Positions 40,413-41,756 of a stretch of DNA of 64,000 nucleotides are shown piece after piece. The DNA lies in the NCBI GenBank assembly GCA_964594735.1, contig CAZQMS010000004.1:13241-77240 (forward strand). Reading direction: 5' to 3'. A model generated the notes under the pieces. The model searched no databases, was not told the DNA's origin, and saw only the letters and a list, made by a program, of their open reading frames with translations. This DNA is from an uncultured Candidatus Saccharibacteria bacterium. Its GTDB lineage: Bacteria; Patescibacteriota; Minisyncoccia; Phycocordibacterales; UBA2100. Position 1 is the first letter of the stretch, and the number at the start of each line of letters is the position of its first letter. Made by a program: the position numbers and the translations under genes.

Positions 40413-41612
40413 ATGGCAGGAGAATTCAATCGCACGAAGCCGCACGTGAACGTCGGCACCATCGGTCACGTCGACCACGGCAAGACCACGCTCACCGCGG
40501 CTATCCTCAACGTGCTCTCGAAAGCTGGCAACGGCTACGGAGCGACGGTGAAGGGAGTCGATGACATCGACAAGGCGCCGGAAGAGAAGGCGCGCGGTAT
40601 TACTATCTCGCTCTCGCACTCCGAGTACGAGACACCGACGAGGCACTACGCCCACGTCGATGCCCCTGGTCACGCCGACTACATCAAGAACATGATCACC
40701 GGCGCAGCCCAGATGGACGGCGCAATCCTCGTGATTGCCGCATCCGACGGCGTCATGCCCCAGACGCGTGAGCACGTGCTGCTCGCACGCCAGGTAGGCG
40801 TGCCGAAGATGATTGTCTTCCTCAACAAGGTAGACCAGGTGGACGACAAGGACCTCATCGACCTCGTCGAAGAGGAAGTCCGCGACCTCCTCGAGAAGCA
40901 GGGCTTCGACGGCAAGAACACGCCGGTTATCCGCGGCTCGGGTCTCAAGGCGCTCGAGAATCCGGAACCGGGCAACGAGTGGTCGGACAAGGTCATGGAG
41001 CTCATCAAGGCGCTCGATGAATACATCCCGACGCCGGAACGCGACACGGCGAAGCCGTTTCTCATGGCTATCGAAGACGTCTTCTCAATCGAAGGCCGCG
41101 GCACCGTCGTCACGGGCCGCATCGATCGCGGCATCATCAAGGTAGGCGAGGAAGTTGAAATCATCGGCATCAAAGACACCAGCAAGACGACCGTCACGGG
41201 TGTCGAAATGTTCAACAAGTCCCTCCAGGAGGGTCAGGCAGGCGACAACGCAGGCATCTTGCTCCGCGGTACCAAGAAGGACGACGTCCACCGCGGTCAG
41301 ATTCTTGCGAAGCCAGGCTCTGTGAAGCCGCACACTGAATTCGAGGCAGAGGTGTACATCCTCTCCAAGGAGGAAGGCGGCCGTCACACGCCGTTCTTCA
41401 CGGGCTACAAGCCGCAGTTCTACGTCCGCACCACGGACGTCACCGGCGAAGTGACCCTCAATGAAGGAGTCGAGATGGTGATGCCGGGCGACACTGTGAC
41501 CTTCAAGGTCAAGCTCGTCGCTCCTATCGCCCTCGAAGACCAGATGCGCTTCGCCATCCGTGAGGGAGGTAAAACAGTAGGTGCCGGCGTAGTAACTAAA
41601 ATTACTGCTTAG
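40413..41612 (+). CDS. tuf: Elongation factor Tu
   Basis: Strongly conserved sequence. The last ~45 nt use AT-richer codons than the downstream duplicate. Confidence 0.95.
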
Positions 41613-41646
41613 CACCGATGCTTCGCTCCGCCAGCTGGCGGACCGC

Positions 41647-41697
41647 GAAGGCGGCAAGACAGTTGGAGCGGGCGTCGTGACCAAAATCACCGTCTAA
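41647..41697 (+). other. Duplicated 3' end of tuf (encodes [16 protein letters not shown]). It is preceded by the palindrome TCCGCCAGCTGGCGGACC at ~41627-41643.
   Basis: Compare the tuf end [18 protein letters not shown]-richer synonymous codons. Confidence 0.75.
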
Positions 41698-41756
41698 GCC
41701 AACGTTTCCCGTAGCCTCCCGCTGCACAGAAAACCCGCCAGCAATGGCGGGTTTTC

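What the first reader, a model, noticed from the sequence alone, without database searches (positions are those of the whole stretch)
41568..41700. Third duplicated gene end: tuf, with the island palindrome between the copies
tuf ends with AT-richer codons (GGT AAA ACA GTA GGT GCC GGC GTA GTA ACT AAA ATT ACT GCT TAG). Thirty-five nt downstream lies a GC-richer copy encoding [16 protein letters not shown].

The spacer between them contains TCCGCCAGCTGGCGGACC. This is exactly the palindrome that fills the variable slot of the cassette-island repeats (copies 3, 5, 6, 8, 10).

This links gene-end replacement to the cassette repeat family. The palindrome may be a recombination site. The island begins ~1.1 kb further on, after lexA.
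Basis: seen in the sequence. Interest (0 to 1): 0.75.

Follow-up and report, generated by a model that had tools for sequence, protein, structure and literature searches.

The report
Foreign replacement end on tuf gene
The last 18 codons of the elongation-factor gene tuf were swapped for a foreign, differently spelled copy. The gene's own end was pushed 85 bases downstream, and the 16-base palindrome between the two copies is a tiny hairpin insertion found in many unrelated genomes, not a dedicated recombination site.

Summary
Its own GC-rich end survives 31 nt downstream (41644-41697), in front of the native terminator. The two copies differ almost only at synonymous third positions, so both were working gene ends in different lineages.

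The same scar sits at rpsG and fusA in this window. It also occurs at tuf, fusA, rpsG or groES in other candidate-phyla-radiation (CPR) bacterial contigs. In a close relative (L001), two tuf-end copies that are reciprocal mosaics flank a Fic gene. That is the signature of a single Campbell-type crossover with incoming DNA carrying its own tuf end. The window copy looks like a version without cargo.

No recombinase is encoded in the 64 kb, but DNA-uptake genes are.

The palindrome TCCGCCAGCTGGCGGA is not specific to gene ends or cassette junctions. There it lies in RNase P RNA hairpin tips, in a tRNA-Leu variable arm, in frame in proteins (read as PPAGG), and between short direct repeats.

The proposal that the palindrome is the recombination site does not. 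Mechanism and enzyme remain inferred.

The parts
40413..41612 (+). tuf (EF-Tu) coding sequence, intact, 399 aa
   Evidence: ORF list. Homologs are 93% identical with the GTP_EFTU domains.
41559..41612 (+). Incoming (xenologous) 3' end of tuf: 17 codons plus TAG, AT-rich
   Evidence: GC3 is 3/17 against 0.81 for the gene body, and 0 of 366 body windows are that low. GC is 0.46 against 0.60.
41613..41643 (+). 31-nt spacer: CACC, then GATGCTTCGC, then the 16-nt palindrome, then C. GATGCTTCGC is either a remnant of the codons M-R-F-A upstream of the crossover or the left arm of a hairpin.
   Evidence: Sequence. The centroid fold pairs CTTCGC with GCGAAG around the palindrome.
41627..41642 (.). 16-nt perfect palindrome TCCGCCAGCTGGCGGA. 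It is nested where the natural tuf inverted repeat CTTCGC-CATCC-GCGAAG has its loop.
   Evidence: Comparison with the in-frame copy at 41544-41565 shows the unfilled state.
41644..41697 (+). Displaced resident tuf end (relic), encoding [17 protein letters not shown], out of frame with tuf (offset 85 nt)
   Evidence: GC3 is 12/17, like the host. Codon changes against the new end are 14 synonymous and 1 non-synonymous. A KITV terminus exists in the relative P0025.
41728..41757 (.). Native intrinsic terminator shared by tuf and the convergent lexA-like gene
   Evidence: DNA fold energy -15.8 kcal/mol, z-score -6.3, flanked by an A-run and a T-run.
33928..33957 (+). fusA incoming 3' end (QEEIVSSRK*)
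33958..34086 (+). fusA spacer made of nested hairpins
   Evidence: Fold energy -60 kcal/mol over spacer plus relic.
34087..34116 (+). fusA displaced resident end (QDEIVASRK*), followed by a terminator at about 34117-34149
28608..28640 (+). rpsG incoming 3' end (ANKAFAHFAW*)
   Evidence: 6 differences, all synonymous.
28650..29156 (+). Cargo of the rpsG insertion: an orphan 168-aa membrane-anchored protein with weak PKD similarity, low GC3
   Evidence: (no homologs apart from itself).
29165..29197 (+). rpsG displaced resident end, followed by a terminator at about 29220-29250
45012..45062 (+). Island junction repeat copy 3 with the palindrome in slot 1. The same arrangement is at 47387, 48039 and 49037, at 50214 (1 mismatch) and, degenerate, at 52119.
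43827..54440 (+). Array of 13 junction repeats, all in + orientation, bounding accessory-gene cassettes between tuf and rpsJ. The unit is CAAAAAACGGCTTAA[slot1]CCCCAAGA[slot2]AATCAAAAG plus a GC-rich hairpin or a TGGTATTGT motif.
   Evidence: The same unit occurs in the islands of relatives.

Best explanation
**What it is.** The tuf 3' end is the scar of a gene-end-anchored insertion.

**Proposed sequence of events.**
1. DNA from a related, AT-richer Kaiserbacteria lineage entered the cell. It carried its own copy of the end of tuf.
2. It recombined with the resident gene by one reciprocal (Campbell-type) crossover at about codons 381/382.
3. The gene now finishes with the incoming end.
4. The resident end and its terminator were pushed downstream, where they persist untranslated.

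The same process has hit rpsG (with a 168-aa cargo gene) and fusA in this window, and tuf, fusA, rpsG and groES in other CPR genomes. These are the genes whose nucleotide sequence is conserved enough between lineages to serve as an anchor. In the window's tuf copy, cargo was lost or never present: only 31 nt lie between the two ends.

**The palindrome is a separate thing.** It is a copy of a very small dispersed GC-rich hairpin insertion. It sits in the loop of the natural inverted repeat CTTCGC-CATCC-GCGAAG of the displaced copy. The same insertion also populates the junction repeat of the downstream island.

**Shown:**
- the duplication;
- the foreign composition of the working end;
- the purifying-selection signature on both copies;
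- recurrence in other genes and genomes;
- the reciprocal mosaic and cargo-bearing versions in a relative;
- the absence of any recombinase gene in the window.

**Inferred:**
- a circular or otherwise one-crossover intermediate;
- entry by natural DNA uptake;
- host recombination functions as the catalyst;
- later loss of cargo;
- the timing of the palindrome insertion.
For: **Both copies were once working gene ends.**
- Across seven gene-end pairs, codon differences are about 51 synonymous to about 10 non-synonymous. The script gave 48 of 66 with the fusA pair mis-registered by one base; the corrected counts were made by hand. Random change would give about 25% synonymous. On the uncorrected 48 of 66 the binomial P is about 5e-16.

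**The working end is the foreign one.**
- Window tuf has GC3 of 3/17 against 0.81 for the body.
- In AT-rich L090 the new groES end is GC-richer than the host and the relic is host-like. The bias therefore follows foreignness, not AT content.

**Recurrence.**
- rpsG and fusA in the window.
- L001 and L002-4 at tuf; L136 and L157 at fusA; L203 at rpsG; L090 at groES.
- Three of nine close tuf lineages carry the duplication and six are unfilled.

**Topology.**
- In L001, tuf-end copies A and C are reciprocal mosaics around a shared GCCGGAGTTGT. All 17 differing codons are synonymous.
- They flank 1.16 kb of lower-GC DNA (0.49 against 0.57) that holds a Fic gene.
- L001 fusA has 82-nt repeats, 80 of 82 identical, flanking 2.2 kb with two ORFs.

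**Enzymes.**
- No integrase, transposase or homing endonuclease was found in the window or in the L001 inserts.
- ComEC and type IV pilus genes are present.

**The palindrome is independent of gene ends:**
Against: - An 85-nt unit is too small to be a plausible double-stranded circle, so cargo loss has to be assumed for tuf and for fusA.
- The identical blocks at the junctions are only 9-12 nt. That is shorter than the stretch RecA normally needs.
- In L002 the relic is only 12 nt while the foreign patch spans about 17 codons. The two junctions therefore need not coincide. That fits a non-reciprocal, microhomology-joined event at least as well.
- In 7 of 8 cases a stable hairpin abuts the relic, which hints at a role for hairpins that this model does not explain.
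- No donor sequence was found.
- Everything rests on metagenome assemblies, and the source contig could not be retrieved.
Confidence: 0.5

Rival explanations
1. Non-reciprocal capture of imported short DNA, as in homology-facilitated illegitimate recombination or short-patch double illegitimate recombination. A donor fragment consisting of the gene end, the stop codon and a 3' hairpin pairs with the resident gene on its left. On its right it is joined by microhomology between the hairpin arm and the resident gene end: GCGAAGG in the hairpin against codons R-E-G of tuf. The resident end is thereby duplicated.
For: - The hairpin abuts the relic in 7 of 8 cases, and the hairpin arm overlaps the relic at GCGAAGG in the window and in L001.
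- In L002 the left and right junctions do not coincide.
- Junction identities are only 9-12 nt.
- DNA-uptake genes are present.
- Only highly conserved genes are hit.
Against: - The reciprocal mosaic of L001 copies A and C is what a reciprocal crossover predicts, not one-sided capture.
- In all three window cases the foreign patch starts within about 15-19 nt of where the relic starts. That would be a coincidence under independent junctions.
Confidence: 0.2
2. A dedicated site-specific recombinase uses the palindrome or hairpin as its site, in the manner of an integron attC. It inserts cassettes both at gene ends and within the island, and the tuf scar is one such cassette junction.
For: - The hairpin lies at the 3' edge of the inserted unit, next to the target, as attC does in integron cassettes.
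- All 13 island junction repeats have the same orientation.
- The same palindrome is found in both places.
Against: - No recombinase is encoded in 64 kb or in the L001 inserts.
- The rpsG junction has no hairpin, and the other cases use unrelated hairpins.
- The palindrome occurs in RNase P RNA, a tRNA and coding sequence of many phyla.
- No common target motif is visible at the junctions.
- No attC-type R''/R' boxes are visible (inspection).
Confidence: 0.12
3. The scar is left by a large integrase-borne island that integrated into the 3' end of tuf, forming attL and attR. The island was later almost completely deleted.
For: - A gene-end mimic at attL with the old end at attR is the classic picture for elements that integrate into protein-coding genes.
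- The tuf-rpsJ interval is an accessory-gene hotspot in all relatives examined.
Against: - The same short form (85-160 nt) recurs in at least six independent cases, which is unlikely for random deletions.
- No integrase remnant was found.
- The cargo-bearing versions carry 1-2 ordinary genes and no integrase.
Confidence: 0.06
4. Local tandem duplication of the gene end followed by divergence, or an assembly artefact that joined two strain variants.
For: The copies lie in tandem, and the data are metagenomic.
Against: - A decaying copy would collect mostly non-synonymous changes and indels. What is observed is 14 synonymous to 1 non-synonymous, with an intact reading frame.
- The composition jump is abrupt.
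- Similar structures occur in independent assemblies. L002, L003 and L004 come from three samples and agree at the tuf end.
- The junction identities of 9-12 nt are far below assembler k-mer sizes.
Confidence: 0.05

Closest known systems
Integrative elements that insert into the 3' end of a protein-coding gene and bring a replacement end, such as e14 and phage 21 in E. coli icd (from my own knowledge, not checked here)
   Same: The working gene ends in an element-derived end that differs synonymously. The original end is left as an untranslated direct repeat downstream. The crossover lies at the 5' edge of the shared segment.
   Different: There is no integrase and no element body here. The inserts are 85 nt to 2.2 kb with arbitrary cargo. 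Several adjacent housekeeping genes are hit, and the events recur independently across lineages.
Foreign C-terminal replacement of mitochondrial atp6 in Allomyces macrogynus, with the native C-terminus kept downstream (from my own knowledge, not checked here)
   Same: A foreign gene end plus a downstream insert displaces the native end, which remains as a relic.
   Different: That insert encodes an endonuclease thought to drive the event. No endonuclease is present here.
Homology-facilitated illegitimate recombination and short-patch double illegitimate recombination in naturally transformable bacteria (from my own knowledge)
   Same: Imported DNA is anchored by a conserved gene, and the other junction forms at microhomology. 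Short clustered patches of foreign sequence result.
   Different: The described outcomes are mostly replacement or deletion, not retention of the displaced gene end. The reciprocal mosaic in L001 is not expected from these processes.
Very small dispersed palindromic repeats: cyanobacterial small dispersed repeats of 21-27 nt (Elhai et al. 2008, from my own knowledge; cited in PMC3116915), Rickettsia palindromic elements, and REP/REPIN elements (PMC3116915, PMC3733652)
   Same: A short palindrome is present in some copies of otherwise alike sequences and absent from others. It is nested in other repeats and hairpin loops, and it is tolerated in frame inside genes and inside structural RNAs.
   Different: It is only 16 nt. 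The identical sequence occurs across several phyla. No GTAG or CGTC tag is visible in the contexts read. No REP-associated (RAYT) transposase is encoded in the window. A subset of copies has flanking direct repeats of 7-13 nt.
Casposons that integrate in the 3'-distal part of the EF-2 gene (PMC6614799)
   Same: A translation elongation factor gene end is the insertion target, and direct repeats flank the insert.
   Different: Casposons encode Cas1 and a polymerase, have terminal inverted repeats, and are flanked by target duplications made on insertion (14-15 bp, from my own knowledge). None of these features is seen here, and the repeats here are diverged homologs.

Membership tests
Integrase-mediated integrative element at a gene 3' end | A replacement gene end at one junction and the displaced original end as a direct repeat | tested here: met
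Integrase-mediated integrative element at a gene 3' end | A tyrosine or serine recombinase gene in or next to the insert | tested here: not met
   Pfam scans of more than 60 window ORFs and of the L001 inserts found none.
Integrase-mediated integrative element at a gene 3' end | An element body between the two att sites | tested here: not met
   Only 31 nt lie between the two tuf ends. Cargo of one or two genes is seen at rpsG and in L001.
Integron gene cassette / attC | An IntI integrase and attC sites with conserved R''/R' (GTTRRRY) boxes | tested here: not met
   No integrase was found (the Pfam calls above). No such boxes are visible in the palindrome or the junction repeat (inspection).
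Integron gene cassette / attC | An array of cassettes separated by repeats in one orientation | tested here: met
   Thirteen junction repeats, all on the + strand, between 43827 and 54400. The genes inside the cassettes lie on both strands.
Diversity-generating retroelement (template and variable repeat at a gene 3' end) | Differences confined to adenines of the template repeat, with a reverse transcriptase nearby | tested here: not met
   Differences are synonymous third-position changes of all kinds. No reverse transcriptase was found (Pfam calls).
REP / REPIN elements | An extragenic palindrome with a GTAG or CGTC tag, and a RAYT transposase in the genome | tested here: not met
   No tag is visible next to the palindrome in the contexts read. 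Sixty-three of 105 low-GC copies lie inside ORFs of at least 120 aa, some of which may be spurious. No Y1 transposase is encoded in the window. Whole genomes were not available.
Intrinsic terminator | A GC-rich stem-loop directly followed by a T-run on the transcribed strand | tested here: not met
   On the + strand the palindrome is followed by CCGCGAAGG at tuf and by CCCCAAGAAATC in the island. The real terminator is at 41728-41757. On the - strand of the island repeat a T-run follows 8 nt away.
Very small mobile palindromic repeats (of the cyanobacterial small-dispersed-repeat kind) | Filled and unfilled versions of otherwise alike sequences | tested here: met
   - Junction repeats with AAA against the 16-mer.
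- The tuf in-frame copy against the relic.
- CCA-adding enzyme DNPPAGGP against GKT----P of structure 6ibp.
Very small mobile palindromic repeats (of the cyanobacterial small-dispersed-repeat kind) | Nesting in hairpin loops or other repeats, and marks of insertion | tested here: met
   - RNase P helix tips at two positions of the model, read by me as P9 and P12.
- A tRNA-Leu variable arm.
- Flanking direct repeats of at least 7 nt in 11 of 104 copies, against 0.42 expected.
Very small mobile palindromic repeats (of the cyanobacterial small-dispersed-repeat kind) | Observed movement, or an identified enzyme | not testable with these tools
   This needs population or experimental data.
Casposon | Cas1 casposase, a family B polymerase, terminal inverted repeats and identical target duplications | tested here: not met
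   None of these was found by Pfam. The repeats here are diverged homologs.

The most novel reading that the evidence does not exclude
Two linked and, as far as I could find, undescribed things.

1. CPR bacteria exchange accessory genes as cassettes anchored on a gene end. Each cassette carries a short copy of the 3' end of a universally conserved gene (tuf, fusA, rpsG, groES). It integrates, and can leave again, by recombination with that gene without any element-encoded recombinase. This leaves arrays of displaced gene ends and builds the hypervariable islands inside the str and S10 ribosomal operons.

2. A 16-nt perfect palindrome (TCCGCCAGCTGGCGGA) and its relatives form a class of ultra-small mobile hairpin insertions shared across CPR, Bacteroidota and other phyla. 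The relatives include CCTGCCTGCCGGCAGGCAGG and the stem-GAGCGAAGCGA-stem hairpins. They insert into hairpin loops, structural RNAs and coding sequence, where the 16-mer is mostly read as PPAGG.
Probability: 0.3. Interest if true: 0.8.

Novelty: new variant of a known kind. Interest (0 to 1): 0.6.

Why it matters
If the gene-end-anchored reading is right, it shows how bacteria with very small genomes and few mobile-element genes still acquire accessory and defence genes. The conserved ends of their most conserved genes would act as landing pads for imported DNA, without inactivating those genes.

It would also explain why the str and S10 ribosomal operons of these organisms are broken up by variable islands. 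The displaced ends would serve as dated markers of past transfers.

The palindrome result matters for a separate reason. An identical 16-nt hairpin inserted into RNase P RNA, a tRNA and many proteins across phyla would be one of the smallest repeat elements known. It is also a practical source of spurious PPAGG insertions in protein alignments of uncultured bacteria.

Tried and rejected
- **Diversity-generating retroelement.** Rejected: the differences are not adenine-specific.
- **Known RNA family at the site.** Rfam at gathering threshold found nothing in the window.
- **Phage origin of the palindrome or the junction repeat.** There were only 4 viral contigs with the 18-mer and none with the repeat.
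- **Retrieving the source contig.** Exact look-ups of window proteins failed. The rpsG cargo ORF has no homolog apart from itself, on a 107.9-kb NCBI contig and a 3.9-kb Logan contig.
- **Finding a donor for the AT-rich end.** Nine close tuf ends are 36-42 of 54 nt identical to the new end and 38-44 of 54 to the relic, which does not discriminate.
- **Extra distal copies of the tuf, fusA or rpsG ends in the window.** None found.
- **The junction repeat as a decayed relic of the tuf end and 3' untranslated region.** AAA ACG GCT TAA reads K-T-A-stop, and CCAAGAAAT also occurs in the native 3' region of relatives. A profile of the repeat hits the islands of relatives but not their native tuf 3' regions, so the idea is not supported.
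- **Homology between the L001 fusA cargo ORFs and window ORFs of similar size.** None.
- **The repeat at 3201-3297.** It is not a gene-end duplication: it lies between genes, upstream of tig.
- **Literature.** No paper in the library prints the palindrome. Searches on CPR palindromic repeats and on integration at tuf gave nothing relevant.
- **More distant tuf loci.** Seventy-eight from metagenomes show no tuf-end duplication.
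Full report
**1. The observation.**

The window comes from a Ca. Kaiserbacteria/Parcubacteria (CPR) genome. Its EF-Tu is 88-93% identical to proteins of that group. tuf occupies 40413-41612.

The last 18 codons are AT-rich:
- Third-position G/C is 3 of 17, against 0.81 for the rest of the gene.
- None of the 366 equally long windows in the gene body is that low.

Thirty-one nucleotides after the stop codon, at 41644-41697, lies a second copy of the same 18 codons:
- It has host-like composition (12 of 17).
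- It encodes [17 protein letters not shown] and shares 38 of 54 nt with the first copy.
- Fifteen of the 16 differences are at third positions.
- A KITV terminus exists in a relative.

Behind this copy comes the strong terminator that tuf shares with a convergent lexA-like gene.

The spacer holds TCCGCCAGCTGGCGGACC. That 18-mer is also exact at 45022, 47397, 48049 and 49047, and has one mismatch at 50224. Shuffles of the window give 0.01 expected matches.

**2. It is one of a series.**

A search for peptides that precede a stop codon and recur downstream found three cases in the window:

| Gene | New end finishes at | Displaced end | Between the new stop and the displaced end |
|---|---|---|---|
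| rpsG | 28640 | 29165-29197 | 524 nt, including an orphan 168-aa ORF |
| fusA | 33957 | 34087-34116 | 129 nt of nested hairpins |
| tuf | 41612 | 41644-41697 | 31 nt |

In each case the in-frame copy has the lower GC3. The downstream copy is host-like and is followed by a terminator.

The same search over all fetched loci found further cases: L001 and L002-4 (tuf), L136 and L157 (fusA), L203 (rpsG) and L090 (groES).

Among nine close tuf lineages, three carry a duplication and six have a plain stop codon followed by a terminator. Seventy-eight more distant tuf loci have none.

**3. What the two copies are.**

Across the pairs, differing codons are about 51 synonymous to about 10 non-synonymous. 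The script counted 48 of 66 with the fusA pair mis-registered by one base. I corrected that pair by hand.

A copy decaying without selection would collect mainly non-synonymous changes. Both copies were therefore functional gene ends until recently, in different lineages.

The copy now in use is the compositional stranger. In the AT-rich L090 it is the GC-richer one. This rules out:
- local duplication followed by drift;
- a diversity-generating retroelement, because the changes are not adenine-specific.

**4. How they came together.**

The relative L001 (tuf 92% identical) carries larger versions of the same structure.

*At tuf in L001.* After the working end (A) and a degenerate relic (B) comes a Fic gene, and then a third tuf-end copy (C). 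A and C are reciprocal mosaics:

| Codons of the repeat | Copy A | Copy C |
|---|---|---|
| 1-11 | identical | identical |
| 12-23 | GC-rich | AT-rich |
| shared GCCGGAGTTGT | identical | identical |
| last 7 | AT-rich | GC-rich |

- All 17 differing codons are synonymous.
- The DNA between A and C has GC 0.49, against 0.57 for the locus.

This is what a single reciprocal crossover produces between the resident gene and incoming DNA that carries a roughly 100-nt tuf-end homolog.

*At fusA in L001.* 82-nt repeats, 80 of 82 identical, flank 2.2 kb with two ORFs.

*No recombinase anywhere.* Neither those inserts nor the 64-kb window encode an integrase, transposase or homing endonuclease. The window does encode ComEC and type IV pilus proteins.

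*Why these genes.* That only the most conserved genes are hit fits a homology anchor.

*My reading.* The window's tuf scar is the same event with the cargo lost or absent. The sequence GATGC-TTCGC in front of the palindrome could be the remnant of the incoming copy's upstream codons M-R-F-A.

*Weak points:*
- The unit is only 85 nt.
- The junction identities are only 9-12 nt.
- In L002 the relic is 12 nt while the foreign patch spans about 17 codons.
- A stable hairpin abuts the relic in 7 of 8 cases.

These points keep alive a non-reciprocal capture joined by microhomology. In that reading the hairpin arm GCGAAGG pairs with codons R-E-G of tuf.

**5. The palindrome.**

- Eighty-four of these loci have 30-50% GC. 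By my rough estimate, chance would give about one hit across all DNA of that composition in the collection.
- About 0.6 Mb of tuf-region contigs that were not selected for the palindrome contains the 16-nt core twice more. One of these copies lies 50 nt after a tuf stop codon.

*Contexts.* They are unrelated to each other:

| Context | Evidence |
|---|---|
| Tips of two RNase P RNA helices (read by me as P9 and P12) in three Bacteroidota | |
| The variable arm of a tRNA-Leu | |
| Inside ORFs of at least 120 aa, some possibly spurious: 63 of 105 low-GC copies, read as PPAGG 40, SASWR 15 and RQLA 8 times (my tally) | |
| CCA-adding enzyme: 4 extra residues relative to a solved structure | |
| Exact flanking direct repeats of at least 7 nt in 11 of 104 copies (0.42 expected) | |
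| Flanking inverted repeats of at least 5 nt in 6 of 104 copies (1.5 expected) | |

*At tuf.* The palindrome sits where the natural inverted repeat CTTCGC-CATCC-GCGAAG has its loop.

*In the island.* It replaces AAA in the junction repeat. The filled copies share longer flanks, including a 32-nt identical upstream hairpin. They therefore multiplied together with the repeat.

*Related hairpins.* Other GC-rich palindromes behave alike:
- CCTGCCTGCCGGCAGGCAGG occurs in several CPR phyla. In L001 it fills slot 2 of the same junction repeat. The window has variants at 31735 and 40236.
- Hairpins with a GAGCGAAGCGA loop occur 8 times in 1.56 Mb, against 0.7 expected. They sit at the relic junction in L136 and L203, and variants of the loop do so in L090 and L157.

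*Conclusion.* The palindrome is a dispersed micro-insertion, not a site specific to gene ends or cassettes. No paper in the library prints it.

**6. The island.**

Thirteen junction repeats, all in + orientation, lie between 43827 and 54400. The unit is CAAAAAACGGCTTAA[slot1]CCCCAAGA[slot2]AATCAAAAG. It is followed either by a GC-rich hairpin or by a TGGTATTGT motif and a gene start.

The cassettes they bound include a Nudix hydrolase, a ketol-acid reductoisomerase, RelB/YafQ and an ornithine cyclodeaminase. Upstream of the array, in low-GC DNA, are a LexA-like protein and a TIR-SLATT pair.

A profile of the unit finds it in the tuf-rpsJ islands of relatives but not in their native tuf 3' regions. 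A derivation of the repeat from displaced tuf ends is therefore attractive but not supported.

**7. Verdict.**

- The duplicated, replaced tuf end is real and recurrent. It is best explained as a gene-end-anchored insertion of foreign DNA.
- The closest known things are elements that integrate into gene 3' ends and bring a replacement end. Here there is no recombinase, the cargo is minimal or arbitrary, and the events repeat at several housekeeping genes.
- I rate it a new variant of a known kind, with moderate to high interest.
- The cross-phylum micro-palindrome is the most novel lead.

Noticed in passing
L005-L124 (genome scan); window 41627, 45022, 47397, 48049, 49047, 50224: The 16-nt palindrome TCCGCCAGCTGGCGGA is scattered through low-GC genomes of CPR phyla, Bacteroidota, Elusimicrobia, Bdellovibrionales and others. 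It lies in RNase P RNA helix tips, a tRNA-Leu variable arm and coding sequence, where it is mostly read as PPAGG. Some copies have flanking direct repeats of 7-13 nt. No paper in the library prints the sequence.
   Followed up: partly
window 31735-31752 and 40236-40255; L009, L034, L071, L074, L140, L001:13194: A second GC-rich palindrome, CCTGCCTGCCGGCAGGCAGG, is shared between several CPR phyla. In the window, variants lie in the leaders of fusA and tuf. In L001 it fills slot 2 of the island junction repeat.
   Followed up: partly
L136:2577, L203:1479 and 5251, L146, L153, L163, L090, L157, L010, L074: A family of hairpins has a conserved loop GAGCG(A/T)AGCGA (it contains GCGAAGC) and variable stems, often between short direct repeats. 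Such hairpins sit exactly at the junction with the displaced gene end in L136 and L203, and loop variants do so in L090 and L157.
   Followed up: partly
window 27716-41612 and 55988-60580: The str and S10 operons are broken up. About 2.6 kb of unrelated genes (FabA-like, uracil-DNA glycosylase, PaaX/Cas2-like) lies between rpsG and fusA. About 6.4 kb of secreted-protein genes lies between fusA and tuf. About 14.4 kb of accessory genes lies between tuf and rpsJ. Relatives carry different genes at the same places.
   Followed up: partly
window 41757-43818: A low-GC module (0.47-0.55) lies right after the tuf terminator. It holds a LexA-like S24 peptidase, a 46-aa ORF behind a near-consensus promoter (42466-42494), a ThsB-like TIR protein and a SLATT/DUF4231 membrane protein. 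It looks like a defence gene pair with a regulator.
   Followed up: partly
window 3201-3232 and 3266-3297 (- strand): A tandem pair of 32-nt repeats, each forming a hairpin (TATCTCAYGGGG...CCCCGTGAGATA), lies upstream of the trigger factor gene. It mimics a gene-end duplication in a spurious ORF.
   Followed up: partly
window 9311-9350, 11009-11034, 13399-13424, 19088-19127: GTAT-rich repeats (AGTATTTTGTATGTAGTATTTGGTAT) lie directly upstream of gene starts. They resemble the TGGTATTGT motif in front of cassette genes and may be the promoter -10 region of this organism.
   Followed up: no
window 9331-9729: A gene for a 23S rRNA intervening-sequence protein (four-helix bundle, bAvd-like) sits between the pilus genes pilB and pilC, flanked by the GTAT repeats.
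   Followed up: no
window 61852-61884 and 62151-62183: There are two copies of CAAAATCAAAAG followed by a GGCCCGGG hairpin. AATCAAAAG followed by a hairpin is the same module as in the island junction repeat. It probably serves as a terminator for minus-strand genes.
   Followed up: no
L002:11125-11152 (also L003, L004), L141:4368-4397, L093:7906: Paired hairpins of the form TCCGCC-loop-GGCGGA TCCGCC-loop-GGCGGA use the same stem as the window palindrome with other loops. In L002-4 they lie inside the N-terminal extension of the S10 gene.
   Followed up: no
L001:11246-11299: The Fic-carrying insert of L001 itself contains an older, degenerate tuf-end relic ([17 protein letters not shown]). Such scars therefore seem to travel with transferred DNA and can stack.
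   Followed up: partly
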